Numbered from the stretch's first letter, positions 5,803 through 23,370 are shown. The stretch: 32,000 nt of DNA from Candidatus Methanoperedens sp. (GCA_041494705.1 JBGQBI010000003.1:60001-92000); one strand, 5' to 3'. Notes: a model not told the origin generated them from the letters alone. Numbers and translations: made by a program.

Positions 5803-5920
5803 TTCACCGGAAAATTATCTTTTCTATCGGAAACGAACAAAAACAGTTGACGTAGTTTTAAGTATATTTTATCCCAGCTTTTTTCTATTTTTGATTTATG
5901 AACAACAGAACCACACTTTA

Positions 5921-5979
5921 CCTATGTTTCTGTATTTAAGATTTACCAGTGAAAGTATGTCGATTATTAGTGTAGGATT
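5921..5979 (-). promoter_or_regulatory. Conserved upstream element of hyfB paralogue A (candidate TATA box CTTAAATAC plus 5' leader)
   Basis: Plus strand cctatgtttctgtatttaagatttaccagtgaaagtatgtcgattattagtgtaggat aligns with 8102-8169. It lies about 120-175 nt upstream of the ATG at 5802. Confidence 0.4.
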
Positions 5980-5992
5980 GAATGGATTTTCT

Positions 5993-8023: not shown

Positions 8024-8101
8024 CCTATCGGTTTGCTAACTCCTTATCAAATTGGAATAATCGACTCCAATTTTTTAGTTTTTGCATTAGAGCCAATGAA
8101 T

Positions 8102-11208: not shown

Positions 11209-11754
11209 TTAATTTCCACAACAACTTGATTTTTTGTTCCTGGATGAGCCACATATAGACTCTTTGGCAGATGCTTTACCGGCAGCACAATTTTTGACAT
11301 GCTCTGCCACTACAGTCTCAGCCACAGTACGGGCGCATTCCCTGAGTTCTTCCTCTGATACCTCATCTATCCCGAATGGGAGAGATGTTTCATAGAGCGT
11401 ATCTGCCTGGACTATTTCAGGGCACAGGTCGGGCAATACGCCTTTCATCATCCTTGAAGAGCAGGATATAAAGCATCCTTCTATGGCAATCGTTTTGTTC
11501 GCCCTTCTGACCAGATTTCTTTGCCCGGTATCCTTTGTAAAAGCGCCGCCGAGACAGATGCGTACTGTGTTTTCGCGGGCAAGCCGATAGGATACGAGGT
11601 TTGCTGCCAGTCGCGCAACCTCGCCTTTGGCGCATGCTCCCTCGCATGCCATAACTGCTATCCTGGGCGGGTTTGTGGAGTGCTTCTCTGCGTATTCTTC
11701 ACATGCGGGACAGGTTTTTTCTACTTTTTCGATCTTGATTGTTTCGTAATTCAT
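11209..11754 (-). CDS. DGC-domain (putative zinc/metalloid-binding) protein with Cys-rich termini
   Basis: IAVMACEGACAKGEVARLAANL...IAIEGCFISCSS fits the DGC-domain pattern. N-terminal CPACEE and C-terminal SSCCGN. The start is taken at MNYETIK (ATG 11754, preceded by GAGAGGT); the track ORF extends to 11778. Confidence 0.55.
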   Translation of the reverse strand: MNYETIKIEKVEKTCPACEEYAEKHSTNPPRIAVMACEGACAKGEVARLAANLVSYRLARENTVRICLGGAFTKDTGQRNLVRRANKTIAIEGCFISCSSRMMKGVLPDLCPEIVQADTLYETSLPFGIDEVSEEELRECARTVAETVVAEHVKNCAAGKASAKESICGSSRNKKSSCCGN

Positions 11755-11783
11755 ATTTCTTACCTCTCTTAGCGCCATTTTTA

Positions 11784-11803
11784 GGTTTCAAATCATATAA
11801 ACC
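11784..11803. promoter_or_regulatory. Inverted repeat GGTTT-N10-AAACC containing TTTCAAAT, in the DGC/arsR divergent intergenic region
   Basis: ggtttcaaatcatataaacc lies between the divergent starts at 11754 and 11873. It shares the (A/T)TTCAAA core with the sites at 12319 and 13045. Confidence 0.25.
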
Positions 11804-11872
11804 ATAAAACTGATTATCAAGATAAATTGAAATCGGGGAAAATATTTATCCTACAAAGACTCTCTGTTTTGC

Positions 11873-12235
11873 ATGCAAATAAGTAGGTGTTGCCCGGCAG
11901 ATTGTGCAATCAAAAGTGATTGGGAAACTGAACTTCAAGTGGAAAAGGATTTGTTGGAATCAAATAAATTTCATGAAACAAACACAATATTAAAACTTCT
12001 GGGTAATCCATCAAGATTAAAAATAACTCTTCTGCTTTTAAACAGGGACCACTGCGTTTGTGAAATAATTTATATTTTAAATGAAAGACAAAATCTGGTT
12101 TCATCTAATCTGGGTATATTAAAACGATTCAAAATAATAGACTCCTACTATCGTTCCAAGCATAAATATTATAAACTGAATGATAATGCAGTTAACATAA
12201 TCAGATTAATTAAGGAAAATTTGATTGGTAAATAA
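11873..12235 (+). CDS. arsR: ArsR/SmtB-family metalloregulator (AT-rich, divergent copy)
   Basis: LKLLGNPSRLKITLLLLNRDHCVCEI resembles the ArsR alpha1-alpha3 region with a CVC site. HTH RQNLVSSNLGILKRFKII. N-terminal RCCPADC. Confidence 0.7.
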   Translation: MQISRCCPADCAIKSDWETELQVEKDLLESNKFHETNTILKLLGNPSRLKITLLLLNRDHCVCEIIYILNERQNLVSSNLGILKRFKIIDSYYRSKHKYYKLNDNAVNIIRLIKENLIGK

Positions 12236-12318
12236 TATTTGCTTTTCATGATTCAGTTTTTCTTGATATCGGTGGTATATCCTTATACATTTAACTGACA
12301 GATTAAATTGCTGCAATA

Positions 12319-12328
12319 TTGAATTCAA
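12319..12328. promoter_or_regulatory. Perfect 10-bp palindrome TTGAATTCAA upstream of the small wHTH-like ORF
   Basis: Read directly; it ends 22 nt before the ATG at 12350. Confidence 0.2.
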
Positions 12329-12349
12329 ACTCCAGATTTAATGTAGAAA

Positions 12350-12643
12350 ATGTTTGTCAAACGAATCGAACAGGTGCTTCCCTGCCTTTCAGACCCATGG
12401 AAGCTCCGGATAATCGCTTATCTTGACAGTCCTCCTGACCTGAAAGAGCTTGCAGAAACACTGGGTGCACGTTATTCAGAAAGCCTTGGAGTGGTATTGG
12501 TGCGCCTTGGGAGGCGTGAGGTAAATTTTTTCGCAAGCGGTAAAGTTACTATTAGAGAAGTTAATGATATAGAAGAGGGCAAGAAACTTGTGAATTCCAT
12601 ACTTGCCATGTCTGCCCAAAAGCAGATACTTAAAGAATTATAA
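12350..12643 (+). CDS. Small hypothetical protein, possibly a truncated ArsR-like winged helix
   Basis: 97 aa. LSDPWKLRIIAYLDSPPDLKELAETLG looks like the start of an ArsR-type wHTH but has no metal-site cysteines. It sits between two arsR genes. Confidence 0.35.
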   Translation: MFVKRIEQVLPCLSDPWKLRIIAYLDSPPDLKELAETLGARYSESLGVVLVRLGRREVNFFASGKVTIREVNDIEEGKKLVNSILAMSAQKQILKEL

Positions 12644-12671
12644 CTAAGTAAAATAACTTAAATCAGGAACC

Positions 12672-13040
12672 ATGAAGAATAAATGTCCATGCGAATCCAA
12701 ACCGGCAGAACTATGCTGCCCGGGCGATGAAAAACTTCGAAAAGATTGGCTTTTGAGTCTTGAAAACGAACACGAACCATTAAGGAAGGTATCAAAGGAA
12801 ATTGCAAGGAAATTGAAACTCCTCTCAAATTCCGACCGGCTGGAAATCCTGTTGATGCTTGAGCAGCGGGAGCACTGTATGGATGAGATGGCGCGAAAAT
12901 TAAAATCAAAAAAACCGGCTATTTCCTATCACCTGTCACTCCTGAAAAAACACGGTATGATTTGCGTAAAAAAACGCTCGCGGTTCACCTTTTATTCACT
13001 TTCTCACAGCGGTAAGAAGGCTATCGCGGCTTTGAAATAA
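12672..13040 (+). CDS. arsR: ArsR/SmtB-family metalloregulator with N-terminal vicinal cysteines
   Basis: LKLLSNSDRLEILLMLEQREHCMDEMARKLKSKKPAISYHLSLLKKHGMI is a canonical ArsR wHTH. The N-terminus carries CPCESKPAELCCPG. Confidence 0.85.
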   Translation: MKNKCPCESKPAELCCPGDEKLRKDWLLSLENEHEPLRKVSKEIARKLKLLSNSDRLEILLMLEQREHCMDEMARKLKSKKPAISYHLSLLKKHGMICVKKRSRFTFYSLSHSGKKAIAALK

Positions 13041-13044
13041 TATA

Positions 13045-13062
13045 ATTCAAATTTTTTTGAAT
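13045..13062. promoter_or_regulatory. Perfect inverted repeat ATTCAAA-TTTT-TTTGAAT between arsR and acr3 (candidate operator or attenuator hairpin)
   Basis: Read directly. It starts 5 nt after the arsR stop codon (13038-13040) and ends 45 nt before the acr3 ATG (13107). Confidence 0.35.
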
Positions 13063-13106
13063 CCATTTATGGGGTTTTATTCACAAAGAATACATGAACT
13101 GGAATA

Positions 13107-14141
13107 ATGAATGAAAAACTTTCCTGGATTAGCAGATATTTGACTTTCTGGATTCTTCTCGCCATGGCTGGCGGTATAATCACCGGCGCTGCCTATCCGG
13201 AGATAGCCAACATACTTGACGCTGTCCGCATCGAGCAGGTATCGCTTCCTATCGCTATCGGGCTTATCTGGATGATGTATCCGCCTCTGGCAGGCGTGAA
13301 ATACGAGGAACTCTCAAAAATGAAGAGGCAGGGGAAAGCTTTGACCGCATCAATCATCCAGAACTGGGTCATTGGTCCTGTTCTCATGTTCGCTCTTGCA
13401 TGGCTCTTCCTGCCGGACATGCCCGAATACCGCATTGGGTTGATATTGATTGGTCTTGCCCGCTGTATCGCCATGGTGCTTGTCTGGAACCAGCTTGCAG
13501 GCGGGGATAACGACCTGTGCGCCGTGCTTGTGGCCATGAATTCCCTATTCCAGGTGGCGCTGTATTCGGTGCTCGCGTATGTATTTATCACCATATTATC
13601 CACATGGATAGGGGGCGCAGGGGCCGGTGCGATCGTAAATATATCCGTGTGGCAGGTAGCAAAGGCGGTTTTCATCTATCTTGGTATTCCATTCATTGCA
13701 GGCATAATAACGCGGTCAGTTCTGCTGAAAAAGAAAGGGAAAATATGGTATGATAATGTGTTTATGAAAAAGCTCGGCCCGACCGCGCTTATAGGACTGC
13801 TGTTTACCATTGTTGTTATGTTCTCATTAAAAGGCGAAAAACTCGTCGAGCTGCCGTTGGATGTGTTCAGGATAGCAATCCCGCTGCTGGCCTATTTCTC
13901 TATAATGTTCGCCTTGTCCTTTTTCATGTCATACAGGCTCGGATTTTCCTATGAGCAATCCACGACGCTTGCTTTCACGGCTGCAAGCAACAATTTTGAA
14001 CTTGCAATTGCGGTGGCTATCGCAGTGTTCGGGATTGGCTCAGGTGAGGCATTTGCTGCCGTCGTTGGGCCGCTAATTGAAGTGCCTGTGATGCTGGGAC
14101 TGGTGCATGTTGCAAGAAGAGCAAGGGTTATGTGGTTTTGA
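13107..14141 (+). CDS. acr3: ACR3-family arsenite efflux permease
   Basis: 344-aa 10-TM-type ORF: ISRYLTFWILLAM..., LIGLARCIAMVLVWN (conserved Cys in the R-C-I-A-M context) and FELAIAVAI near the C-terminus. Directly downstream of arsR. Confidence 0.9.
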   Translation: MNEKLSWISRYLTFWILLAMAGGIITGAAYPEIANILDAVRIEQVSLPIAIGLIWMMYPPLAGVKYEELSKMKRQGKALTASIIQNWVIGPVLMFALAWLFLPDMPEYRIGLILIGLARCIAMVLVWNQLAGGDNDLCAVLVAMNSLFQVALYSVLAYVFITILSTWIGGAGAGAIVNISVWQVAKAVFIYLGIPFIAGIITRSVLLKKKGKIWYDNVFMKKLGPTALIGLLFTIVVMFSLKGEKLVELPLDVFRIAIPLLAYFSIMFALSFFMSYRLGFSYEQSTTLAFTAASNNFELAIAVAIAVFGIGSGEAFAAVVGPLIEVPVMLGLVHVARRARVMWF

Positions 14142-14746: not shown

Positions 14747-14824
14747 CCTATATGTTCGGAGTGAAGAACGTTTGAAGATTTGGCGAAAAGTCATGGGGTG
14801 TAGAATTTAATATAAATATTTGTA

Positions 14825-14961
14825 GTTGCAGCCCATAAGGGGTAATGGCTTGCAGAAAACAGCGGCATATTTTGATAAATAGGTTCCAATAGCGAAACCA
14901 GAGAATGCAAATCCAAATAATATTTTTATGATTTAGAGATTAATTCTTTAATTCTTGTCAT
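14825..14961 (-). pseudogene. Internally deleted remnant of a paralogue of the 19244-19963 membrane-protein gene
   Basis: 14825-14934 aligns by hand at roughly 85-90% identity with 19396-19505 (the 3' part of that gene). 14935-14961 aligns with its 5' end (19937-19963). The ~430 nt in between are missing. The reading frame gives MTRIKELISKS-stop. Confidence 0.7.
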
Positions 14962-14971
14962 AATTGCCTGC
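14935..14971 (-). repeat. Copy A of the shared 5' cassette (ATG + MTRIKELISK codons + upstream AATTGCCT)
   Basis: agagattaattctttaattcttgtcataattgcctgc. Compare 19937-19963 and 20417-20455. Confidence 0.7.
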
Positions 14972-14989
14972 TTAAAAAGTTAAAAACAT

Positions 14990-15013
14990 GCGGAGGATGG
15001 GATTTGAACCCAT
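14990..15013 (-). other. tRNA 3'-end fragment (T-arm plus 3' acceptor strand), a possible integration (att) scar
   Basis: Minus strand ATGGG-TTCAAAT-CCCAT-CCTCCGC is a 5-bp T-stem, a canonical TTCAAAT T-loop and a 7-nt acceptor strand, followed by A. No matching 5' acceptor strand (GCGGAGG), D-arm or anticodon arm lies upstream; the sequence runs straight into the ABC ATPase stop codon. Confidence 0.5.
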
Positions 15014-15020
15014 TTTTTTA

Positions 15021-15725
15021 TCATGTCCCCCGCTCTGCAAGTTCTCCGTCCTTGAGCCAGACTACCGTGCTCACATACTTCATATCATCGGGTTCATGCG
15101 TCACCATCAGGATCGTGAGTCCGGTCTCCCTATTTAATTTCTGAAATAGCTCAATTATCTGTTCTGAAGAGGCGCTGTCAAGATTTGCCGTCGGCTCATC
15201 TGCAAACAATATATCAGGTTTGTTTATCAGTGCTCTTGCAATCGCCACACGTTGCTGTTCTCCTCCCGACATCTCACGGGGACGGTGATGCAGCCTTGTG
15301 CCAAGTCCGACCTGTTCAAGTGCTTCAGTCCCGGCTTTCATATACTCTTCCTTCTTCCTGCCGAGCGCCATTGCAGGCAGATAAACATTTTCAAGTGCAG
15401 TAAGCTCGGGCAGAAGTGCATACTCCTGGAAGACGTAACCGAATTTCGACAGACGGAATTTCGCCTTCCGGGATTCCGGCAGTCCTGAAATGTTATTTCC
15501 ATGAAAAATAATCTCACCGGAGTTAGGCATATCGAGTAATCCGAGCTGGTGCAGCAGTGTTGATTTGCCGCTTCCGCTCTTACCCATAATAGCTACAAAT
15601 TCCCCTCGCGAAATTTCGAATGAGACTTTGTTCAGTGCCTTCACCTTCACCTCTCCCATGCCATAAATCCTGGAAAGTCCCTTTATTTCTAAAATGGGTT
15701 CGGTAACACCTGTCATTTTAATCAC
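15021..15725 (-). CDS. ABC transporter ATP-binding protein, MacB/LolD type
   Basis: Walker A GKSGSGKST, signature MSGGEQQRVAIARAL, Walker B ILFADEPTANLD, H-loop VTHEP. 8-nt overlap with the upstream permease gene. Confidence 0.9.
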   Translation of the reverse strand: MIKMTGVTEPILEIKGLSRIYGMGEVKVKALNKVSFEISRGEFVAIMGKSGSGKSTLLHQLGLLDMPNSGEIIFHGNNISGLPESRKAKFRLSKFGYVFQEYALLPELTALENVYLPAMALGRKKEEYMKAGTEALEQVGLGTRLHHRPREMSGGEQQRVAIARALINKPDILFADEPTANLDSASSEQIIELFQKLNRETGLTILMVTHEPDDMKYVSTVVWLKDGELAERGT

Positions 15726-16917
15726 CCCATATTGTATCTATTATCGTTTTACGGACTGCCATCCATGAAGGTATAAACCCGGCAGCAATCGCAGCTATTA
15801 TCAGGCTTATTACATTCATCGAAACTTTTTCAGGAAGAATCATTAATGAAGCGAGTCCGATAGGAAATTTCAATGGATGCTCGATGAAATATGGTTTTAT
15901 GGCAAAAAATATTATTATCAAGCCGATAAATATGCCGCAAACCACGATGAACAATGCCTGGAAGATATACGATTGTATTATTATGGATTCTTCTATTCCA
16001 ACAGCCCTCAAAATCCCTATCTGCCTTCGCTTGGTGATAGTACTGGTATAGACTATTATAAAAATAGTAATGACCGCGACAAACAAGCCGATTGCAGTTA
16101 TCATCATTGCTATCATGTCAAAGCTGTTTGTTATGTTTTTTACCATGCCGGCATAGACAGTCCATGGTTTTATTTTTTCTTTAATACCCATCTCTAAAAA
16201 CTGTTTTATGTACCAGTCTTCATTTCCATTATCTCTGGTCTTGACCAGTATTTGTGAAGCTTTGTCTTCCAGACCGACTACGGATTCCATCTCTTTCTGG
16301 CTGATGTATGCCATCGTATTGGTTTGTATGAAATTCGCATCAAAAATTCCCTTTACCCTGTAGCTCTTTTTAACTCCATTATCGAACAGCACATCTATGC
16401 TATCACCAACTTTAACTCCAAGTGAACTATAGTCAAGATCACCGCCATACCCTCCTGAAATCTCTTTTCCAAGTAAGATCTCGTTCTCGTCAAGCCTGCT
16501 CAGGTAATTGCCGGCGATCAGGTAATTATGATTTGTAGTCACTTTCATCTCGTCATCCGGATTAATGGAACGCAAAGTCCAGGTTCCATGTTTATCCTTA
16601 TAGGAAAGTGTAGCGCCCGTTACATATTGTGATGAGATGCCCACTACACCCGGAACGCCTTTTATCTTTTGTTCCAGGGAATAAACATCGCTTATATATT
16701 TTTCATCCTTTTTGGGTTCGAGCACTACATTGCTATACAGAGAGTTGATTACCTGTTTGTTGGTTGCCTCAGTCACTCCAAGAAAAATGGAACCTATGAA
16801 TACTAAATTTACAAAGATTAAGGACATTATAAAGATTATTAAAAGCAGAGTGCTTTTATTTCCTTTCATCATTGACCTGTATGCCAGAAACAACGATAGT
16901 TTAACGTTATTGAACAT
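15718..16917 (-). CDS. ABC transporter permease, FtsX/MacB-like (4 TM with a large extracytoplasmic domain)
   Basis: 399 aa: N-terminal TM, a ~230-aa soluble loop, then three C-terminal TM helices with KRRQIGILRAVGIE (FtsX-domain signature region). Confidence 0.8.
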   Translation of the reverse strand: MFNNVKLSLFLAYRSMMKGNKSTLLLIIFIMSLIFVNLVFIGSIFLGVTEATNKQVINSLYSNVVLEPKKDEKYISDVYSLEQKIKGVPGVVGISSQYVTGATLSYKDKHGTWTLRSINPDDEMKVTTNHNYLIAGNYLSRLDENEILLGKEISGGYGGDLDYSSLGVKVGDSIDVLFDNGVKKSYRVKGIFDANFIQTNTMAYISQKEMESVVGLEDKASQILVKTRDNGNEDWYIKQFLEMGIKEKIKPWTVYAGMVKNITNSFDMIAMMITAIGLFVAVITIFIIVYTSTITKRRQIGILRAVGIEESIIIQSYIFQALFIVVCGIFIGLIIIFFAIKPYFIEHPLKFPIGLASLMILPEKVSMNVISLIIAAIAAGFIPSWMAVRKTIIDTIWGD

Positions 16918-16926
16918 ATGTCCTCT

Positions 16927-18105
16927 TCATTTAGTATTATCTGATTTTTTCCTGCGGTGAAGATAATATACGCCCACCGCTATGAGCGGCAGAGTCACAA
17001 TAGCCGGTGCTGCCATGCCATTTTTATTCGGGCTGCGCACATAGAGGTTTAATGATTCGGTGACAGTCCGGACACCGAGATCATCTTCGAATTCGATATT
17101 GGCAGAATAAGGAATATCGCCACCCTTCTCTGCGTAGAAGGTAAAAACGCCTGGCGCATCATCATCGGGTTTGATCTTGCCAAGGAAAGCGGTTCTTGTC
17201 CCTTTAAATGGGACATCGAGGTTGACTTTCGCAGATTTCGCCTCACCGGTTCCTGAATTTTCAATGCGCATGTTCACAGTGACAAGGTCACCTTCAACCG
17301 GATTTTGCGGCTCGATTTTCAGGTCTGAAATCGCAAGTTCTGCCTTTCCAAGGACCCGGACGCCTGCGAAACTTTTCGAACTTATGTTATCCCCGTTCTC
17401 ATCCTTATAATCCATTTTGATAGGGATTGAGTACGATGAAATTTCGGTCTTGTCTTTAACCTGGATAGCGTAGCTCAATTGAATGGATTCCCCGGATTCA
17501 AGTCTCTTTATATTCTTTGTATCAGCATCCACAGATACGAAAGGCAGACCGTTCGTGACAGCGCTTACCTGTACTTCTCGTGCCGTACCGGTTCCATCAT
17601 TTGAGACTGAAAACGTAATATTAAATTTATCCTTCGGGCTTATGCGCCCAGGATTTACCGTGATGTTAGAAATCATGAGTTGAGGTGCTCCTCGTACCAT
17701 TACCTTGAAGGTTTTGTTGGTTTCACTCAACATGTCATTGCTAAACCATCGTGCCCTGAATTCAATATCGTATGAACCGGAAGTTGCGAGAGGATCGACA
17801 TGAAGCAGATAGGTTTCAGCTACAGCGCCATATTTGATAATCCTTCCCTCATCGATAATGCGGTCATTTTCATTTTTAAGTTTAATTGGCGAGTCAGGAA
17901 GAATCTCAAGCCTTACATTTTCTATATCGCTAAATTGATTATCAAGCCTGACTGACAGTGTTAAATCCTGACCCGGTTCAACTGGCTGGGGTGAGAGTTG
18001 ATCCAGTACGATTTCAAGTTCAGCGTTAGCAGGAGCAATCATGAATATGAGTGCAAACACTGCAACCATAGTTAGTATTCTCTGTTTATTCATTTTTTTC
18101 ACCAC
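16927..18105 (-). CDS. COG1361/CARDB-type surface protein (signal peptide, three Ig-like repeats, C-terminal TM anchor)
   Basis: Signal-like MVAVFALIFMIAPANA. Three repeats of the form L-x-I-S-x-(I/L)-x-(V/I)-x-P...N-x-G-T-G-x-A (for example ISNITVNPGRISPKDKFNITFSVSNDGTGTAREVQVS and ISDLKIEPQNPVEGDLVTVNMRIENSGTGEAKSAKVNL). C-terminal PAIVTLPLIAVGVYYLHRRKK. The start may be MNKQ at 18093. Confidence 0.7.
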   Translation of the reverse strand: MVKKMNKQRILTMVAVFALIFMIAPANAELEIVLDQLSPQPVEPGQDLTLSVRLDNQFSDIENVRLEILPDSPIKLKNENDRIIDEGRIIKYGAVAETYLLHVDPLATSGSYDIEFRARWFSNDMLSETNKTFKVMVRGAPQLMISNITVNPGRISPKDKFNITFSVSNDGTGTAREVQVSAVTNGLPFVSVDADTKNIKRLESGESIQLSYAIQVKDKTEISSYSIPIKMDYKDENGDNISSKSFAGVRVLGKAELAISDLKIEPQNPVEGDLVTVNMRIENSGTGEAKSAKVNLDVPFKGTRTAFLGKIKPDDDAPGVFTFYAEKGGDIPYSANIEFEDDLGVRTVTESLNLYVRSPNKNGMAAPAIVTLPLIAVGVYYLHRRKKSDNTK

Positions 18106-18325
18106 TTTTTTTAATGATCTTCTTCAACTCGAGACTTGATATGCCCAAGTCTATTACACCGAATTTGCCCGCGACCCTCAGGATTTCGCCTTCGACCATC
18201 GTAATCTCATCGGCTTCCAGGGTGCCTCCGAACTCAAATTCCTCCTTGTAGTCGCATCTGATTTTGAGGTCTTTTATCATGTTTGGCTTCAGGGTCACAT
18301 AGAATGCAAATTCGTGTCCGACCAT
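18086..18325 (-). CDS. Hypothetical 79-aa soluble protein, first gene of the COG1361/ABC operon
   Basis: Start taken at MVGHEF (ATG 18325, GGTGA 8-12 nt upstream). The track extension to 18424 runs through the duplicated promoter module and is not credible coding sequence. Confidence 0.5.
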   Translation of the reverse strand: MVGHEFAFYVTLKPNMIKDLKIRCDYKEEFEFGGTLEADEITMVEGEILRVAGKFGVIDLGISSLELKKIIKKSGEKNE

Positions 18326-18434
18326 TTTTTTTGTCACCAGGAGAAAAATGGATTTGGAAATGCTTAAATAAAATCTGGCACGAATATGGAGTAAGACAAC
18401 AGGCATGTAACAAAGGTTACACAAATGTAACGAG
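18323..18434 (-). promoter_or_regulatory. Promoter/operator module copy 1: triple TGTAAC/GTTACA half-sites, TATA-like TTTATTTAAG, GGTGA RBS
   Basis: About 112 nt that align by hand with 21486-21597 at about 100 identical positions. TGTAAC-N4-GTTACA-N4-TGTAAC lies at 18406-18431, the AT-rich box at 18362-18375 and tcacc (GGTGA) at 18334-18338. Confidence 0.6.
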
Positions 18435-18442
18435 GAAAAACA

Positions 18443-19192
18443 ATGAAAGTCTACGAGCTATTTACGGAACTGTCTTCAGAAAACAGGCTTGGAATACTCC
18501 AGACCCTTGATGAAAAACCGATGACCTTCACCAACCTGATCAAAGAAGTTGACATGAACTCGACAGAAGCATCAAGACAATTATCAAGATTAACAGAAGT
18601 CCGGCTAATTGAGAAAAAAGGGGACGGAAGATATCATAATACACTCTTCGGGAAACTGGTTTTATCCAGCATATCAGACCTGAACTTCATTTCGGAGAAA
18701 TCAGGATACTTCCTTGAACATGATACTGCACCGATTCCACTTGATATTCTAGGACAAATAGACGCTCTATCTAAAGGAGAAATCATAACAGGTGTCTATA
18801 ATATTTTAAATACCCATGAAAAATTGGGCGACGGTATAAAGAGCTACATGTGGTACATGTCCGATGATTTTCCCAGGCACCATCTGCCCGATATCGAAAA
18901 GAAATTGGAAGAGGGATTGGAAATAAGAGTAATACTTCCAAAATGCATGTGCCCTACTAAGCCATTTAGCGGGCCACTTAGCGAAAAAAACAGGAAAAAG
19001 CTAGAGATCAAAGTATTAGATGAGATCAAAATATCAGTAATCGTAAGCGATAACTTTTGCATGCTGGAACTACCTGGACCTGATGGAAAGATTGATCAAA
19101 ATACTGCCATCTTCGGCTATGACGACCGATTCAGAGAGTGGTGCAAAAAGCTCTTCCAGTACTACTGGACAAAATGTTATCCTTGTACTTGA
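18443..19192 (+). CDS. Archaeal wHTH transcriptional regulator with FilR1/DUF1724-type C-terminal domain
   Basis: N-terminal ArsR-like wHTH (SSENRLGILQTLDEKPMTFTNLIKEVDMNSTEASRQLSRLTEVRLIEKKGDGRYHNTLFG), followed by a ~170-aa domain beginning FLEHDTAPIPLDILGQI. This matches the architecture of FilR1-family regulators. It diverges from promoter module copy 1. Confidence 0.65.
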   Translation: MKVYELFTELSSENRLGILQTLDEKPMTFTNLIKEVDMNSTEASRQLSRLTEVRLIEKKGDGRYHNTLFGKLVLSSISDLNFISEKSGYFLEHDTAPIPLDILGQIDALSKGEIITGVYNILNTHEKLGDGIKSYMWYMSDDFPRHHLPDIEKKLEEGLEIRVILPKCMCPTKPFSGPLSEKNRKKLEIKVLDEIKISVIVSDNFCMLELPGPDGKIDQNTAIFGYDDRFREWCKKLFQYYWTKCYPCT

Positions 19193-19243
19193 TATTAATG
19201 ATTAAAAGAAAACAAAGCCGCAGCTCTTCAATTTTTAGTAAAA

Positions 19244-19963
19244 TTAAAACAGTATTTTTAAACGCATATAACCCCATACAATATGCCAAATCAGGTAATA
19301 CACAAGCCTGAATGAATACATCGAGATGAAATCATACCGCTTAAAAATGTATAACTGGGACAAATTAAATAAAAACAAATTAAGCAAAACAGTTGTTGCA
19401 GCCCATAAGGGGTAATGGCTTGAAGAAAACAGCGGTATAGTTTGAAAAACGGGCTCCAACAGCGAGACGATGATAATGCAAATCCAAATAATATTTTTAT
19501 GATTTGCCTTCTTAAAAATCGAAGTCAGGGAAATCAAGAGTATCGAAAGGGGCAATACATGAAAAAGGATTTCAACAAAAAATCCGATAGCCGGGTAAAA
19601 TAACAGGGATTCAGGAAACAAAACGTTCAAATCAGCAGGGAAAGGAACGTTAAGATCAACAACCAGGATTGTTATTAACGCAAATACCGCTGCAAAACTG
19701 GAACGGCGAAACAGCCCTTTAAGATTCTCCTTTTTATAAATTGCGAACCAACCTCTGGAAAGAAGAAAAGTTAAAGAAATAACGCCCAAGAAGAAAATAA
19801 AAAAGGAGGCTATTAAAGGATTTATTCCGCCGATAAATCGCTGAAAAAGAAGATTGTTAGAAAAATAAATTATTCCTGTCAGCACTACAACTCCAATGGA
19901 TAAGCCAGTAAAGACCAGGTATTGCGACCTTTCCTTTGAGATTAATTCTTTAATTTTTGTCAT
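19244..19963 (-). CDS. Polytopic membrane protein, weakly CPBP (CAAX-protease)-like
   Basis: Six or seven predicted TM segments. FFVEILFHVLPL and WHIVWG loosely resemble CPBP motifs. The start is taken at the conserved cassette ATG (MTKIKELISKE, 19963); the track ORF starts at 20005. Confidence 0.5.
   Translation of the reverse strand: MTKIKELISKERSQYLVFTGLSIGVVVLTGIIYFSNNLLFQRFIGGINPLIASFFIFFLGVISLTFLLSRGWFAIYKKENLKGLFRRSSFAAVFALITILVVDLNVPFPADLNVLFPESLLFYPAIGFFVEILFHVLPLSILLISLTSIFKKANHKNIIWICIIIVSLLEPVFQTIPLFSSSHYPLWAATTVLLNLFLFNLSQLYIFKRYDFISMYSFRLVYYLIWHIVWGYMRLKILF
19937..19963 (-). repeat. Copy B of the shared 5' cassette (MTKIKELISK codons)
   Basis: tgagattaattctttaatttttgtcat. Compare 14935-14961 and 20417-20444. 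Confidence 0.7.
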
Positions 19964-20012
19964 AGATAATTTGTTTAGTTTGGAGTTTGCATTACAATTG
20001 AGCATCCCTATA

Positions 20013-20444
20013 TCAAGGAGCGGCAGTATTGCTATCTTCTCGACTATAGGCTTTGAAAGTCAAAAGAACGCCTATTGCGAAAAGAACTATATCAAATATG
20101 TACACTCCGACCGTGGGAGTATTTTGAAGGCCCTGTTGTGCTTCTGGAGCGAACATCCGGAACAGACCACCGAGAAGGGCAAACCAGCCCACGAGCGTTA
20201 CCATCACAGGCCAGCCAGCCGTCCAGCGATTGTGGGCACGGACGATTGAAAGACCGGCAACAAACCATAAGATGCCAGCGAGATAAGTGATAGGAGCAAT
20301 ATTTACCGCCCAGATATGAAGATTCATCGCTTCGGATATAGCCATCGCAATAAGCGTGGGGCCGACCAACCCTGCAATTTGTTTTGAATTTGTCATTTTA
20401 ACCTCTTTATGTTCCTTAGAAATTAATTCTTTAATTTTTGTCAT
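20013..20444 (-). CDS. Small four-TM membrane protein of unknown function
   Basis: 143 aa. It begins with the cassette peptide MTKIKELISKE behind AAGGAGG. A second in-frame start MTNSKQIAGL (ATG 20396) has its own AGAGG. Confidence 0.55.
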   Translation of the reverse strand: MTKIKELISKEHKEVKMTNSKQIAGLVGPTLIAMAISEAMNLHIWAVNIAPITYLAGILWFVAGLSIVRAHNRWTAGWPVMVTLVGWFALLGGLFRMFAPEAQQGLQNTPTVGVYIFDIVLFAIGVLLTFKAYSREDSNTAAP

Positions 20445-20455
20445 AATTGCCTCCT
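20417..20455 (-). repeat. Copy C of the shared 5' cassette (AAGGAGG RBS + ATG + MTKIKELISK codons)
   Basis: tagaaattaattctttaatttttgtcataattgcctcct. The upstream aattgcct is shared with copy A. Confidence 0.7.
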
Positions 20456-20471
20456 TGTTTTTAATTGCCCA

Positions 20472-21488
20472 TCATACCAACGGCATTGCTTGTGTATCAG
20501 CCACAAGAAGGACTTTGCCTGCTGTCGGATTAACCCGATATAATTCAAGAGCTTCCCGCGCCGCTGACAACGGAAAACGTTTTTGAATAGTGGTCTGCAA
20601 CTCATTGGAAGCCATGCTTTGCGCCCGTCTCACATCCATTATCATTTGCATAATATTCTTTTTTTTAACCCAGTTTCCAAGAAAAAATCCGCCAATATTT
20701 TTTTCTTCATGCCACAATAGATGCGGATCTATTACTATTTTTTCTCCAGAGAGATTGGCGTACGCCAACAAGGTACTGCCATAAGGTGCGGCTTCCAGCA
20801 TCTGCCGGGCCAATTCGCCCCCCACCGCATCCAACAAAAGCGTCGCCTTCAGTTCATGTGCTAAATTACGGAAGTTATCTGCAAAATTTTGTTCGTCGCT
20901 CCGAATAATGAACTTGGCGCCTCTGGAATCTAATACTTTCTCTTGCTCATTTTTTCTCACGATATTTATAACCGGGATATGATATTTCATGCCCAACCGT
21001 AAAATCATTTGTCCCAGCGCACTGGCCGCAGCGGTATTCGCAATAGCGGTGTGTTTATCTTTCCTTGCGATATCAATGAATGCAAGGGCTGTTAAGGGAT
21101 TAACCAGCATGGTCGCTCCTTGTTCCATAGAAAGATTCTTTCGCAAAGGAATGCAAGATGCTGCTCGTGTTACCATATACTCTGCCCAAGTGCCGCCAGA
21201 TGTCGATGCGGAACAGATAACGCGTTTTCCCAAAAACAAACGCGGGAAAAAACCAGGCCCGGATGCGACCACCGTTCCACTGCCTTCTATGCCCGTTACA
21301 AAAGGAAACTGTTTAGGCACGTCATACTTTAAAAAACCCAAATCAGATGGGTTGATCGGCGCGGCTGCCATACGAACCAGAACCTCTCCCGGGCCGGGCT
21401 GTGGAACAGGAATTTGGCGAACCGTTGGCCATACGCTATTTTTTTCGAAAATAGCAGCTAGCATAGTTTTAGGAATAAATTGATTCAT
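20472..21488 (-). CDS. MDR-superfamily NAD(P)H-dependent oxidoreductase (quinone oxidoreductase / zeta-crystallin-like)
   Basis: PGPGEVLVRMAAAPINPSD, GIEGSGTVVASG and NTAAASALGQM (nucleotide-binding region) fit quinone-reductase-type MDRs that lack zinc ligands. The start is taken at MNQFIP (ATG 21488, GGTGA upstream). The track extension to 21575 lies inside promoter module copy 2. Confidence 0.75.
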   Translation of the reverse strand: MNQFIPKTMLAAIFEKNSVWPTVRQIPVPQPGPGEVLVRMAAAPINPSDLGFLKYDVPKQFPFVTGIEGSGTVVASGPGFFPRLFLGKRVICSASTSGGTWAEYMVTRAASCIPLRKNLSMEQGATMLVNPLTALAFIDIARKDKHTAIANTAAASALGQMILRLGMKYHIPVINIVRKNEQEKVLDSRGAKFIIRSDEQNFADNFRNLAHELKATLLLDAVGGELARQMLEAAPYGSTLLAYANLSGEKIVIDPHLLWHEEKNIGGFFLGNWVKKKNIMQMIMDVRRAQSMASNELQTTIQKRFPLSAAREALELYRVNPTAGKVLLVADTQAMPLV

Positions 21489-21597
21489 TTTTTTATCACC
21501 AGAAGAAAAATGGATTTGGAAATGCTTAAATAAAATCTGGCACGAGTGTGGAGTTAGGAAACAGGCCTGTAACAAAAGTTACACAAATGTAACAAAG
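21486..21597 (-). promoter_or_regulatory. Promoter/operator module copy 2: triple TGTAAC/GTTACA half-sites, TATA-like box, GGTGA RBS
   Basis: Aligns with 18323-18434. TGTAAC-N4-GTTACA-N4-TGTAAC at 21568-21593. The central 40 nt, aaaaatggatttggaaatgcttaaataaaatctggcacga, are identical in both copies. Confidence 0.6.
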
Positions 21598-21755: not shown

Positions 21756-21875
21756 ATGAAAATTGCAAGGCAAACGCAAAGGATTATAACCATGCGCGAC
21801 GGCAGGATTGTAGGTGATACAGCGATGCTAGAAAAATCTGATTACCCAAAATTGAGGGAGAAAAATGACTGGTAA
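21756..21875 (+). pseudogene. 3'-terminal remnant of a MacB/LolD-type ABC ATPase gene
   Basis: The 39-codon frame reads MKIARQTQRIITMRDGRIVGDTAMLEKSDYPKLREKNDW. (I)A..(T/A)(Q/D)R(I)I.(M/L).DG.IV is the usual C-terminal strand of these ATPases (compare VVWLKDGELAERG in the intact gene at 15021). A stop lies just upstream in frame, and no Walker motifs are present. Confidence 0.4.
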
Positions 21876-23370
21876 ATCAATTATTATCATCGGGGCTGGC
21901 CTCGCGGGTCTTTCCACAGGCTGCTACTCACAGATGAACGGTTATCAAACCCACATCTTCGAGCACCATACCACGCCGGGCGGAGTGGCCACCTGCTGGA
22001 AACGCAAAGGCTACATAATCGATGGCGGCATTCATTTCCTGATGTGTCACAAGCCAGGGCAGTCAATATATGAATTATACCGCGAACTGGGTACAGCTCA
22101 ATCCAATCGTTTCCTCGACATGACCTCCTACTGTCGTTTCATTGATGAAGCCAGCGGGCGAAGCGTTCATATCACCCGGGATTTAGACCTCCTGGCAAAG
22201 GAGTTAAAAGCTCTCTCGCCTACCGATTCACGAATCATCGATGACCTGGTCGCCGGCGCCCGGGCCATGCAGGGAACCGATATGGGGGATATGGGCATGA
22301 GCCAGCCCCAGGAGCTTTTGGGCTTCCTGGACAAGCTCAAGCAGATGTGGAAGATGCGCCGGTTTTTCAAATACTTCACCGGCAGATATGCCAGGTCCGC
22401 CGCAGATTACGGGAAAGCTATTCATGATCCCTGGCTGCGATATATCTTCGAAAACATGTTCCTGCCAGAGGTGCCTGTCTGGTTCATCCTTATGCTCCTT
22501 GGACTGCTGGCTGACGGGCAACTGGCGCTGCTGGAGGGGGGTTCGCTCAACTTTGTCCTTCCTATCGAGAAGCATTACAGGAACCTGGGCGGGCAGGTGA
22601 CTTACGGGGCTACTGTTGAGAAGATCCTTGTGGAAAACGGTAGGGCTGTGGGCGTGCGCCTTGCTGATGGCAGCGAGCACCGTGCAGATATCGTGGTCTC
22701 TGCCGCCGATGGATACAGCACAATATTTGAGATGCTGGAGGGACGCTATGTGGACGCGGAGATTGAGAAGCGTTACAAGAACTGGAAGCTAACCCGTCCC
22801 CTCGTTATGATAAGCTTCGGGGTTGCCCGTGAATTCAAAGGTGAATCAAGCCTGAATATCATAAAACTGGAGCAACCCTTCACAACAGGCAGAAAAGCTA
22901 TTGATGGAATTACGGTACGAATTTTTAACTACTCCGACGGGTTTGCTCCACCGGGCAAGACCGTGGTGCAGGTAATGTTCGAGACTGATTGGGACTGGTG
23001 GAACGAGCTGCAAAAGGATAGAAATAGCTACGAAGCTGAAAAAGAGCGAATTGCTAATCAAGTGCTGGAGCGGCTTGAGGCGCGCTATCCCGGCATCTCG
23101 TCGCAAGCGGAGATTATTGATGTTGCCACTCCTTACACGTGGTGGCGTTATACCCGCAATTATAAAGGAGCCTATGAGGGGTGGCTAATGTCTTCGGAAA
23201 TAATCAATGCCCGGATCAATAAGACCCTTCCCGGTCTTGTGAATTTTTATATGGCCGGCCAGTGGGCAACCCCCGGTGGGGGAGTCATATCAAGCTTATA
23301 CTCTGGTCGCCACGTAGTACAGATACTCTGCCAGAGGGATAAGAAGCCATTTTCGATTGTTGCGCCATGA
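21865..23370 (+). CDS. FAD-dependent oxidoreductase of the phytoene desaturase (CrtI)-related family
   Basis: N-terminal dinucleotide fold IIIIGAGLAGLSTGCY...FEHHTTPGG, length 501 aa, and C-terminal YMAGQWATPGGGV typical of CrtI/amine-oxidase-like enzymes. Confidence 0.75.
   Translation: MTGKSIIIIGAGLAGLSTGCYSQMNGYQTHIFEHHTTPGGVATCWKRKGYIIDGGIHFLMCHKPGQSIYELYRELGTAQSNRFLDMTSYCRFIDEASGRSVHITRDLDLLAKELKALSPTDSRIIDDLVAGARAMQGTDMGDMGMSQPQELLGFLDKLKQMWKMRRFFKYFTGRYARSAADYGKAIHDPWLRYIFENMFLPEVPVWFILMLLGLLADGQLALLEGGSLNFVLPIEKHYRNLGGQVTYGATVEKILVENGRAVGVRLADGSEHRADIVVSAADGYSTIFEMLEGRYVDAEIEKRYKNWKLTRPLVMISFGVAREFKGESSLNIIKLEQPFTTGRKAIDGITVRIFNYSDGFAPPGKTVVQVMFETDWDWWNELQKDRNSYEAEKERIANQVLERLEARYPGISSQAEIIDVATPYTWWRYTRNYKGAYEGWLMSSEIINARINKTLPGLVNFYMAGQWATPGGGVISSLYSGRHVVQILCQRDKKPFSIVAP

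What the first reader, a model, noticed from the sequence alone, without database searches (positions are those of the whole stretch)
18323..21597. Duplicated ~112-nt promoter/operator module wires two unrelated operons into one putative regulon with a FilR1-like regulator
18323-18434 and 21486-21597 align at about 100 of 112 positions, and a 40-nt core is identical. Each module ends at the ATG of a minus-strand operon. The first operon is the 79-aa protein, COG1361 surface protein and MacB-type ABC system. The second is the MDR oxidoreductase and two membrane proteins. Each module carries GGTGA, a TATA-like TTTATTTAAG and, further upstream, TGTAAC-N4-GTTACA-N4-TGTAAC, which forms two overlapping palindromes. 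In copy 1 the triple site sits 12-37 nt before the ATG of the divergent wHTH/DUF1724 regulator (18443), which is the geometry expected for autoregulation. Copy 2 has no divergent gene, only decayed sequence. Intergenic DNA is conserved this well while the flanking genes are unrelated, which argues for selection on, or recent copying of, a regulatory cassette.
Basis: partly seen in the sequence, partly recalled or inferred. Interest (0 to 1): 0.7.

Follow-up and report, generated by a model that had tools for sequence, protein, structure and literature searches.

The report
Reused archaeal promoter-operator cassette
The repeat is real: it is the two-way promoter and operator region of a regulator cassette conserved in Methanoperedens archaea, and an old second copy that lost its regulator now sits exactly at the start codon of a foreign oxidoreductase gene, which is an ordinary but clean case of promoter reuse.

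Summary
18326-18431 and 21488-21593 are 92% identical over 106 nt without gaps, with a 42-nt identical run.

The repeat is not a free-standing or MITE-like element. It is the whole divergent intergenic region between a conserved 79-aa gene (p79) and a wHTH/DUF1724 regulator (REG). I found it, always in the same orientation, in about 50 places in Candidatus Methanoperedens genomes and metagenomes. It is often in tandem arrays of 2-3 cassettes.

- **Conserved blocks:** the minus-strand TATA/BRE block, and the palindrome GTTACA-N4-TGTAAC 11 nt before the REG ATG.
- **Third hexamer:** It is probably REG's TATA region.
- **Deeper conservation:** the p79/REG pair and the layout of TATA/BRE block plus palindrome also occur in Methanolobus.
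- **Copy 2:** it is an old paralogue, not a recent copy of copy 1. Its regulator gene is deleted 5 nt past the palindrome. Its 5'UTR is joined exactly to the native ATG of an MDR gene unique to this genome, whose closest relatives are 65% identical.
- **Shared tail:** both units end in the same gene (mem253), which is decayed in unit 1. This points to a tandem duplication.

Co-regulation by REG is plausible but unproven. REG is an Msr/TrmBL2-like one-component factor, not a FilR1-type response regulator.

The parts
18326..18442 (.). Module copy 1: the complete divergent intergenic region between p79 (minus strand) and REG (plus strand)
   Evidence: It is homologous at 77-97% to the region upstream of REG orthologues in 25+ genome loci and 19 metagenome contigs.
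21489..21597 (.). Module copy 2: the same region without a regulator gene. Homology ends 5 nt after the palindrome.
   Evidence: 92% identical to copy 1. No REG remnant lies to the right.
18363..18380 (-). TATA/BRE-like block of the minus-strand promoter, copy 1 (TGCCAGATTTTATTTAAG on the minus strand)
   Evidence: Mean column identity is 0.95 across 40 copies. The metagenome copies were selected with this block, so that figure is biased upward. The block is recognisable in Methanolobus as CTTTAAAAAAATCTGGAA. The promoter role is inferred.
21525..21542 (-). TATA/BRE-like block, copy 2
   Evidence: It lies inside the 42-nt identical run.
18334..18338 (-). GGTGA Shine-Dalgarno, 7 nt before the p79 ATG at 18325
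   Evidence: Read from the sequence.
21496..21500 (-). GGTGA Shine-Dalgarno, 7 nt before the MDR ATG at 21488
   Evidence: Read from the sequence. Homologue N-termini show that this ATG is the native MDR start.
18416..18431 (.). Core operator, copy 1: palindrome GTTACAcaaaTGTAAC, 11 nt before the REG ATG
   Evidence: Hexamer column identity is 0.98-0.99. There are 28 exact and 6 one-mismatch sites, all inside modules, and none elsewhere in 520 kb.
21578..21593 (.). Core operator, copy 2, identical to copy 1
18406..18411 (.). First hexamer TGTAAC (copy 2: 21568-21573). It is TATAAC or TATTAC in most other copies. It is probably REG's TATA region or a weak half-site.
18443..19192 (+). REG: a 249-aa one-component regulator with a wHTH domain and a DUF1724 / PLD-like C-terminal domain
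   Evidence: Pfam HVO_A0261_N 1.6e-12 and FilR1_middle 2.6e-8. TrmBL2 by sequence at 5e-4 and by fold at E 4e-13 on a model with pLDDT 76.
15021..18325 (-). Operon 1: p79 (18086-18325), CARDB protein (16927-18105), FtsX permease (15718-16917), ABC ATPase (15021-15725)
   Evidence: Pfam. The same gene order occurs in L003, L009, L010, L014, L015, L018, L024 and L047.
19244..21488 (-). Operon 2: MDR quinone-reductase-like gene (20472-21488), mem143 (20013-20444), mem253 (19244-20005; likely start at 19963)
   Evidence: Pfam and NCBIfam. MDR has no close homologue in other Methanoperedens; the next best hit is 65% identical. mem253 is orthologous to the tail gene of the canonical operon in L014.
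14822..14973 (-). Decayed remnant of mem253 at the end of operon 1: start region plus codons about 167-204, with an early stop
   Evidence: blastn gives 88-89% to 19392-19505 and to 20406-20456. It is collinear with the intact ABC-mem253 junction of L014.
21756..21860 (+). C-terminal stub of an ABC ATPase gene left by the deletion that removed REG2
   Evidence: blastx gives 65% over 23 aa to the L021 ABC protein, E 6e-5.
21865..23370 (+). FAD amine-oxidase-family gene. It is now the first plus-strand gene facing module copy 2, 270 nt away, and is a possible rightward target.
   Evidence: Pfam. In L007 and L009 the orthologue lies downstream of REG on the same strand. Control by the module is inferred.

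Best explanation
The repeat is the bidirectional promoter/operator region of a conserved archaeal cassette. In this cassette a one-component wHTH/DUF1724 regulator (REG) is transcribed divergently from an operon that starts with the 79-aa protein p79.

**Left half.** It carries the minus-strand core promoter (BRE/TATA: CCAGATTTTATTTAAG) and a roughly 18-nt 5'UTR with GGTGA.

**Right half.** It carries REG's own promoter and a 16-bp palindrome, GTTACA-N4-TGTAAC, between a TATA-like T(A/G)TAACAAA and the REG ATG.

**Inferred mechanism.**
- A REG dimer binds the palindrome and represses its own promoter by occlusion.
- From the same position, about 45-55 bp upstream of the minus-strand TATA, it modulates the divergent operon, most likely by activating it.
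- An unknown ligand acts through the TrmB-type C-terminal domain.

**History in this genome (inferred).** The whole unit [mem253-ABC-FtsX-CARDB-p79-module-REG] was duplicated in tandem, at about the time of species-level divergence.
- Unit 1 kept the transporter operon and REG, and lost mem253.
- In unit 2 the transporter genes were replaced by a horizontally acquired MDR oxidoreductase, joined exactly at its native ATG to the module's 5'UTR. REG2 was deleted 5 nt beyond the palindrome.

**Consequence.** MDR-mem143-mem253 is therefore very probably transcribed from a captured copy of the p79 promoter. It carries an intact REG operator that only a regulator encoded elsewhere can occupy, with the neighbouring REG as the obvious candidate. 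That would make a small regulon.

**Shown:** the homology, the anatomy, the conservation pattern and the gene replacements.
**Inferred:** TSS positions, REG binding, the sign of regulation and co-regulation.
For: - **Repeat confirmed:**
- **Distribution:** the module lies upstream of REG orthologues and paralogues in every Methanoperedens locus retrieved. It is always in the same orientation and is nearly always followed by ATGAAAGTC, the REG start.
- **Tandem arrays:** 2-3 cassettes occur in L005, L006, L008 and L012.
- **The halves separate at about position 54-60.** Five loci keep only the operator half together with REG (L012_404, L013, L016, L017, L023). One locus keeps only the TATA half, in front of an ABC operon (L005_4973).
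- **Column conservation:** it peaks at the TATA/BRE block (0.95) and at hexamers 2 and 3 (0.98-0.99), against 0.76-0.82 in the spacers.
- **Specificity:** the palindrome is absent outside modules in 520 kb and in the rest of the window.
- **Deep conservation:** 8 of 9 REG homologues examined in Methanolobus and other Methanosarcinales (REG 40-47% aa identity) face a p79 homologue about 105 nt away. Most of these loci show an AAATCTGG TATA block, and several (L027, L028, L031) a GTAACA-N4-TGTTAC palindrome about 12 nt before the ATG.
- **Regulator fold:** REG has a TrmBL2-like fold. TrmBL1 represses when bound downstream of the TATA box and activates when bound upstream of BRE/TATA (PMC4706686). 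Msr-type HTH+DUF1724 factors activate or repress adjacent genes (PMC3419521; bioRxiv 10.1101/2021.03.04.434021).
- **MDR is foreign and joined at its native start:**
- **Ancestral ABC-mem253 order:** seen in L014.
- **Related precedent:** PMC11111574 reports tandem duplication that activates horizontally transferred genes.
Against: - No transcript, TSS or binding data exist.
- The operator is about 70-90 bp upstream of the predicted minus-strand TSS. That is too far for direct repression and farther than many archaeal activator sites.
- With 9 mismatches in 106 nt, an untouched 16-nt palindrome in copy 2 has a chance probability of about 0.23. Its intactness therefore does not prove selection.
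- Whole-module identity is no higher than synonymous-site identity within the genus.
- The first hexamer is not conserved as a half-site.
- I could not scan the rest of the source genome for further copies or for REG paralogues.
- The tandem-duplication history is a parsimony argument.
Confidence: 0.6

Rival explanations
1. Relic operator. Copy 2 supplies only a constitutive core promoter and 5'UTR to the captured MDR operon. The palindrome upstream is an inert leftover of the deleted REG2 promoter, so there is no regulon.
For: - The operator half travels with REG, not with the minus-strand promoter, in five loci. One ABC operon (L005_4973) keeps only the TATA half.
- The operator sits far upstream of the minus-strand TATA.
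- Intactness of the palindrome in copy 2 is not statistically significant (about 0.23).
- The other regulator-less copy (L039, M. nitroreducens) has a decayed operator, GTTACA to ATTACA.
Against: - The spacing between the TATA block and the palindrome is fixed across all full-length copies, and the overall layout persists to Methanolobus.
- Divergent regulator/target pairs normally share the operator.
- If REG binds copy 1 it must also bind the identical site in copy 2, so some occupancy is nearly unavoidable.
Confidence: 0.3
2. Recent copy or gene conversion. Copy 2 was copied from copy 1 a short time ago, and its similarity reflects youth rather than function.
For: - The two copies are only 3.2 kb apart and share a 42-nt identical run.
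- Copy 1 shares diagnostic bases with B-type modules of other genomes, which hints at some exchange among copies.
Against: - Copy 1 is 97% identical to L005_6416 but only 91.5% to copy 2.
- Copy 2 is equidistant from copy 1 and from orthologues in other species.
- The accompanying mem253 remnants are 88-89% identical.
Confidence: 0.05
3. Mobile non-regulatory repeat (MITE/REP-like) or a structured RNA element, rather than a protein operator and promoter.
For: Several copies occur per genome. The palindromes could form short hairpins (z = -2.6 for the 51-nt operator segment).
Against: - No terminal inverted repeats or target duplications.
- Single orientation and a fixed position relative to REG in about 50 copies.
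- The other 19-mer hits in metagenomes show no further homology to the module, or only a few extra bases.
- Whole-module folds are no better than shuffles on either strand (z from -0.5 to +0.1).
- No Rfam family matches.
Confidence: 0.03

Closest known systems
Promoter reuse / putative mobile promoters (Matus-Garcia, Nijveen & van Passel 2012; PMC3575422)
   Same: A highly similar upstream region (about 92% identity, over 100 nt) lies in front of unrelated first genes within one genome. That survey reports over 4000 such families with a mean identity of 92%.
   Different: Here the mechanism is visible. A whole cassette was duplicated in tandem and its cargo then replaced. The junction is exactly at the ATG, the captured gene is foreign, and the organism is an archaeon.
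Msr-type regulators of Methanosarcina (MsrA-H; HTH + DUF1724)
   Same: Same two-domain architecture and size. They are encoded next to the genes they activate or repress (PMC3419521; bioRxiv 10.1101/2021.03.04.434021).
   Different: Msr factors control corrinoid methyltransferase genes. Here the partners are p79 and CARDB/MacB-type ABC genes. I found no DNA motif for Msr factors in the papers searched, whereas this family has a clear predicted palindrome. Orthology to any named Msr was not tested.
TrmB family (TrmB, TrmBL1, TrmBL2) of Thermococcales
   Same: wHTH plus PLD-like C-terminal domain. TrmBL2 is the best fold match. TrmBL1 recognises a 6-N5-6 palindrome and represses or activates according to site position (PMC4706686).
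   Different: Only 15-17% sequence identity. There is no hit to the Pfam TrmB HTH model. The half-site (GTTACA) and the spacer (N4) differ. No sugar-binding subdomain is present.
FilR1 of Methanosaeta harundinacea
   Same: It shares the Pfam FilR1_middle (PF08350) region and an ArsR-related DNA-binding domain. FilR1 binds its own promoter (PMC3991700).
   Different: FilR1 is a 54-kDa response regulator phosphorylated by the kinase FilI. REG has 249 aa, no receiver domain and no kinase gene nearby.

Membership tests
FilR1-type two-component response regulator | N-terminal receiver (REC) domain phosphorylated by a cognate histidine kinase | tested here: not met
   Pfam finds only wHTH models and FilR1_middle in the 249-aa protein. 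FilR1 is 54 kDa with a receiver domain (PMC3991700). None of the 25 window ORFs scanned against Pfam has a kinase domain; about ten called genes in 24.4-32 kb were not scanned.
FilR1-type two-component response regulator | PF08350 (FilR1_middle / DUF1724) region | tested here: met
   34.4 bits against a cut-off of 27. Only profile positions 65-127 of 128 are matched.
Msr-type one-component regulators (HTH + DUF1724) | N-terminal ArsR-like wHTH followed by DUF1724, about 24-28 kDa, no receiver domain | tested here: met
   HVO_A0261_N, HTH_20 and HTH_5 at residues 5-80 and PF08350 at 181-243. The architecture is as described for MA4375 and MsrC (bioRxiv 10.1101/2021.03.04.434021; PMC11784639).
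Msr-type one-component regulators (HTH + DUF1724) | Genetic control of adjacent methyltransferase genes | not testable with these tools
   The adjacent genes here are p79, CARDB and ABC. In Methanolobus the p79 operon ends in a SAM methyltransferase, which is not a corrinoid type.
TrmB family | wHTH plus C-terminal PLD-like (TrmB effector-domain) fold | tested here: met
   Foldseek to TrmBL2 5bpd/5box at E 4e-13 over about 248 columns, and to the TrmB sugar domain 2f5t at E 1e-4, using a model with pLDDT 76. phmmer to TrmBL2 at 5e-4.
TrmB family | Match to the family sequence models at curated thresholds | tested here: not met
   NF041141 TrmBL2 scores 24 bits against a cut-off of 530. Pfam TrmB is not among the hits.
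Putative mobile promoter (promoter reuse) | At least 80% identity over at least 50 nt upstream of non-paralogous coding sequences in one genome | tested here: met
   92% over 106 nt. The first genes, p79 and MDR, are unrelated. Caveat: the operon tails are paralogous.
MITE / REP-like mobile repeat | Terminal inverted repeats, target-site duplications, and many dispersed copies in both orientations | tested here: not met
   No inverted-repeat pair involves the module ends. All of the roughly 50 copies are in one orientation next to REG or a REG stub.
Known structured RNA (riboswitch, leader, sRNA) | Match to an Rfam model, or folding clearly better than shuffled sequence | tested here: not met
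   No Rfam hit in the modules at E up to 1. Fold z-scores range from -0.5 to +0.1.

The most novel reading that the evidence does not exclude
The p79/REG intergenic module may work as a reusable 'plug-in' expression cassette in Methanoperedens. Its left half has been rejoined to at least four different kinds of cargo:
- the p79-CARDB-MacB-type transporter operon;
- a second MacB-type ABC system;
- a 2092-aa NACHT NTPase;
- here, a horizontally acquired quinone-reductase-like gene, joined at its ATG.

A family of near-identical regulators with the same recognition helix and the same operator would then place native and foreign genes under one still unknown signal. That signal could be metalloid or envelope stress, given the ars-type context of the MDR homologues and of this locus. 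p79, which has no known fold relative, would be an undescribed core component of this sensory system.
Probability: 0.15. Interest if true: 0.6.

Novelty: new member of a known kind. Interest (0 to 1): 0.35.

Why it matters
- **Operator prediction.** It gives a concrete, testable operator (GTTACA-N4-TGTAAC, with a GTAACA-N4-TGTTAC variant in Methanolobus) for the DUF1724/Msr-type family. These regulators are common in methanogens and methane-oxidising archaea. I found no binding motif for them in the papers searched.
- **Domestication of a foreign gene.** It documents base-by-base how a horizontally acquired gene can be brought under control in an archaeon: tandem duplication of a regulator/target cassette, then replacement of the cargo exactly at the start codon.
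- **Gene calls.** It corrects two public calls for the MDR start. JGI's 367-aa call runs through the module, and NCBI's 330-aa call skips the native start.
- **Limits.** Promoter reuse and divergent autoregulated cassettes are well known, so the conceptual gain is modest.

Tried and rejected
- **Artefact.** A first calculation suggested that p79 third codon positions were more conserved than positions 1 and 2, which hinted at a non-coding constraint. Anchors shifted by 1-2 nt caused this. With the correct frames the identities are 0.956, 0.965 and 0.869, typical of a protein under purifying selection.
- **Structured RNA.** Whole-module folds are no better than shuffles and there is no Rfam match.
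- **Metagenome scan with the 19-nt TATA/BRE pattern.** It returned 54 stretches. About 19 are true modules, all next to REG. The rest show no further homology to the module, or only a few extra bases. The source metagenome is not in that collection, so other copies in the source genome could not be counted.
- **p79.** No hit in Pfam, NCBIfam or PDB sequence searches, and no significant Foldseek match.
- **mem143 and mem253.** No family assignment.
- **REG remnant right of copy 2.** None found. There is only the C-terminal stub of an ABC ATPase gene.
- **13-nt match 15011-15023 = 21486-21498.** This is at chance level (E 0.27).
- **Promoter scan tool.** I did not use it, because it models sigma-70 promoters and the organism is an archaeon.

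Full report
**Observation**

The two stretches are real repeats. 18326-18431 and 21488-21593 align without gaps at 91.5-92% over 106 nt (blastn E 5e-38). The longest identical run is 42 nt (18342-18383).

Each copy abuts a minus-strand ATG (18325 and 21488), with GGTGA 7 nt upstream. CTTAAATAAA and the TGTAAC-N4-GTTACA-N4-TGTAAC string occur only in these two places in the window. The 16-bp palindrome with up to 2 mismatches hits only the modules, against 0.67 expected.

Pfam confirms the genes:
- CARDB, FtsX and ABC_tran for operon 1;
- ADH_N/ADH_zinc_N for the first gene of operon 2;
- wHTH (HVO_A0261_N, HTH_20, HTH_5) plus FilR1_middle for the 249-aa regulator (REG).

**Source and relatives**

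REG orthologues at 70-92% identity are all from Candidatus Methanoperedens (ANME-2d). An identical JGI contig exists.

A scan of species-representative genomes with a REG alignment gave 37 loci. In every Methanoperedens locus the module lies directly upstream of REG at 77-97% identity. It is always in the same orientation and almost always ends in the REG start ATGAAAGTC. A metagenome scan with the 19-nt TATA/BRE pattern added 19 more copies, all next to REG. The other hits to the pattern share little or nothing more with the module. So the repeat is not a dispersed MITE-like family. It is the complete divergent intergenic region of a cassette.

**Cassette types**

- **Type A (the window's copy 1):** ABC < FtsX < CARDB < (ABM-domain 135-aa protein in many genomes) < p79 < module, REG >.
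- **Type B:** MacB-type permease (about 790 aa) < ABC' (45-49% identity) < module, REG-B > (73-75% identity).
- **Tandem arrays:** 2-3 cassettes occur in L005, L006, L008 and L012.
- **Separable halves:** five loci keep only the right half (from about position 54) together with REG. One locus keeps only the left half, in front of an ABC operon.
- **Other cargo:** in L006 the TATA half faces a 2092-aa NACHT NTPase gene.
- **Reading:** the left half behaves as the promoter and 5'UTR of the minus-strand cargo. The right half behaves as REG's promoter and operator.

**Conservation pattern**

| Measure | Value |
|---|---|
| Module identity to the window, genus-wide mean | 0.88 |
| REG codon position 3 identity | 0.83 |
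| p79 codon position 3 identity | 0.87 |
| Column identity, TATA/BRE block (40 non-identical copies) | 0.95 |
| Column identity, hexamer 2 (GTTACA) | 0.99 |
| Column identity, hexamer 3 (TGTAAC) | 0.98 |
| Column identity, spacers | 0.76-0.82 |

Whole-module identity is about the same as synonymous-site identity. High identity by itself therefore does not prove selection. An earlier odd value for p79 was a frame artefact.

The distribution of changes is more informative. The TATA/BRE figure is partly biased, because the metagenome copies were selected with that pattern. The first hexamer is TGTAAC in 11 copies and TATAAC in 19, and TATTAC occurs in the oldest type-B copies. It is therefore better read as REG's TATA-like element (T(A/G)TAACAAA at -37 to -29 from the ATG) or as a weak half-site.

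In 520 kb of fetched DNA the palindrome occurs 28 times exactly and 6 times with one mismatch. All of these sites are inside modules.

**Deep conservation**

Nine REG homologues in Methanolobus and other Methanosarcinales (38-47% aa identity) were examined, and 8 of them (40-47% identity) face a p79 homologue across about 105 nt. Most show the block CTTTAAAAAAATCTGGAA. Several (L027, L028, L031) have a palindrome GTAACA-N4-TGTTAC about 12 nt before the ATG, and L030, L031 and L038 have an upstream GTTAC-N5-GTTACA repeat. In these cases the half-site has changed symmetrically. This is what a dimeric DNA-binding protein would impose. The recognition helix (S-T/P-E-A-S/T-R-Q-L-S/N-R-L) is nearly invariant.

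**The regulator**

REG has no receiver domain. FilR1 itself is a 54-kDa response regulator (PMC3991700). REG's architecture matches the Msr-type HTH+DUF1724 factors of Methanosarcina, which activate or repress neighbouring genes (PMC3419521; bioRxiv 10.1101/2021.03.04.434021; PMC11784639).

Its C-terminal half matches TrmBL2 by sequence (5e-4; NF041141 2e-5 but far below the cut-off). The AlphaFold model (pLDDT 76) matches TrmBL2 over its full length (Foldseek E 4e-13). It also matches PLD-fold proteins and the TrmB effector domain.

TrmBL1 binds a 6-N5-6 palindrome. It represses when bound downstream of the TATA box and activates when bound upstream of BRE/TATA (PMC4706686). This is a useful functional analogue.

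**Copy 2 and its history**

- **Right boundary.** Homology ends at 21597, 5 nt after the palindrome. To the right there is no REG remnant. There is only the last 23-30 codons of a plus-strand ABC ATPase gene, followed by an FAD amine-oxidase-family gene. The orthologues of that gene lie downstream of REG in L007 and L009. A deletion therefore removed REG2 and its neighbours.
- **Left boundary.** The module's 5'UTR meets the MDR gene exactly at its ATG. Homologues start MNQIIPNSM / MxxxIPKxM, so 21488 is the native start.
- **MDR is foreign.** It has no close homologue in other Methanoperedens. The next best hits are 65% identical, and the few named ones are bacterial. Two of the closest homologues lie in DGC-ArsR-SAM methyltransferase-MDR(-MFS-ArsA) clusters.
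- **Shared tail.** Operon 2 ends with mem253. L014 carries an 84%-identical mem253 directly after the ABC gene of the canonical type-A operon. The window holds a decayed mem253 remnant at exactly that place in unit 1 (14822-14973, 88-89% identical to unit 2).
- **Most economical history.** The unit [mem253...p79-module-REG] was duplicated in tandem. The two units then decayed in complementary ways, and the transporter genes of unit 2 were replaced by MDR (plus mem143).
- **Age.** The duplication is not recent. Copy 1 is 97% identical to L005's orthologous module but only 91.5% to copy 2. Copy 2 is equidistant from copy 1 and from other species' copies.

**Mechanism**

Shown:
- an identical core promoter, Shine-Dalgarno site and operator in front of both operons;
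- an operator position between REG's TATA-like element and its ATG;
- fixed spacing across copies.

Inferred:
- REG binds the palindrome as a dimer and autorepresses. A weaker upstream half-site pair (ACAACA-N4-T(A/G)TAAC, two helical turns away) may contribute.
- From about 45-55 bp upstream of the minus-strand TATA it modulates the divergent operon, most probably by activation.
- A ligand acts through the TrmB-type domain.

For copy 2, occupancy by REG is nearly automatic if REG binds copy 1, because the sites are identical. An effect on MDR transcription is less certain. The probability that the palindrome escaped 9 random substitutions is about 0.23. The only other regulator-less copy found (L039, M. 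nitroreducens) has a decayed operator. Copy 2's rightward promoter now faces the amine-oxidase-family gene 270 nt away, which may be a third transcription unit under the same control.

**Rivals and verdict**

| Reading | Weight | Main reason |
|---|---|---|
| Captured promoter, with co-regulation by REG as an unproven extension | 0.6 | Anatomy, conservation pattern and gene replacements are shown; co-regulation is my lower-confidence step (roughly even odds) |
| Relic operator, no regulon | 0.3 | Cannot be excluded; see Mechanism |
| Recent copy or gene conversion | 0.05 | Contradicted by the identity ranking |
| Mobile repeat or structured RNA | 0.03 | Contradicted by orientation and position, fold z-scores near 0 and no Rfam match |

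The finding belongs to the known class of promoter reuse. That class has over 4000 families with a mean identity of 92% (PMC3575422). It also resembles reported activation of transferred genes by tandem duplication (PMC11111574).

What is new is the instance:
- an archaeal Msr/TrmB-like cassette with a well-defined predicted operator;
- a base-precise capture of a foreign gene;
- p79, a conserved partner protein of unknown fold.

Interest is moderate to low (0.35).

Noticed in passing
window 11209-14141: An ars-like island lies next to unit 1: a DGC-domain protein, two ArsR-type HTH proteins, a 97-aa protein and an SBF/ACR3-type permease. Two of the closest homologues of the captured MDR gene lie in DGC-ArsR-methyltransferase-MDR(-MFS-ArsA) clusters. 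The MDR gene may therefore belong to metalloid detoxification.
   Followed up: partly
window 18086-18325 (-): p79 is a conserved 79-aa protein predicted as six beta strands plus a C-terminal helix. It has no hit in Pfam, NCBIfam, PDB or Foldseek. It is the conserved divergent partner of the regulator from Methanoperedens to Methanolobus, and may be a core part of the system.
   Followed up: partly
window 14989-15033 (-): A sub-threshold tRNA-like fragment (Rfam tRNA, 22 bits; ARAGORN finds no gene) lies between the ABC stop and the mem253 remnant. It is conserved at the same place in L014. It could be an old integration scar.
   Followed up: no
window 21756-21860 (+): The last 23-30 codons of an ABC ATPase gene (…RIITMRDGRIVGD…) lie directly upstream of the amine-oxidase-family gene. 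They are a relic of the deletion that removed the second regulator.
   Followed up: yes
window 20472-21575 (-): Public gene calls disagree on the MDR start. JGI aa from TTG at 21575, which runs through the promoter module. NCBI aa from Met9. Homologue N-termini and the GGTGA spacing support ATG 21488 (338 aa).
   Followed up: yes
window 19931-19964 vs 20412-20445: mem143 and mem253 share their ribosome-binding region and first 10 codons (MTKIKELISK, 94% nt identity) but are otherwise unrelated. The real mem253 start is probably 19963, not 20005. mem143 was found only in this genome.
   Followed up: partly
L011 and L039 (Ca. M. nitroreducens), about 7200-8060: A 720-bp segmental duplication (93.5% identity) carries a Gly/Met-rich secreted protein gene, p79, the module and the first 19 codons of the regulator. 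The regulator-less copy has two substitutions in the operator.
   Followed up: partly
L047 5851-7256: A 1.3-kb insertion carrying a 255-aa ORF interrupts a module and duplicates part of its right half. It may be an insertion sequence.
   Followed up: no
L006 1531-7908: The TATA half of a module faces a 2092-aa NACHT-domain NTPase gene with a different, longer leader. This is another example of cargo exchange on the left side of the module.
   Followed up: partly
window 706-8023 (-): Three paralogous Proton_antipo_M (complex I/Mrp-type antiporter) genes lie alongside NADHdh and 4L-type subunits. 4976-5802 and 7191-8017 are 77% identical.
   Followed up: no
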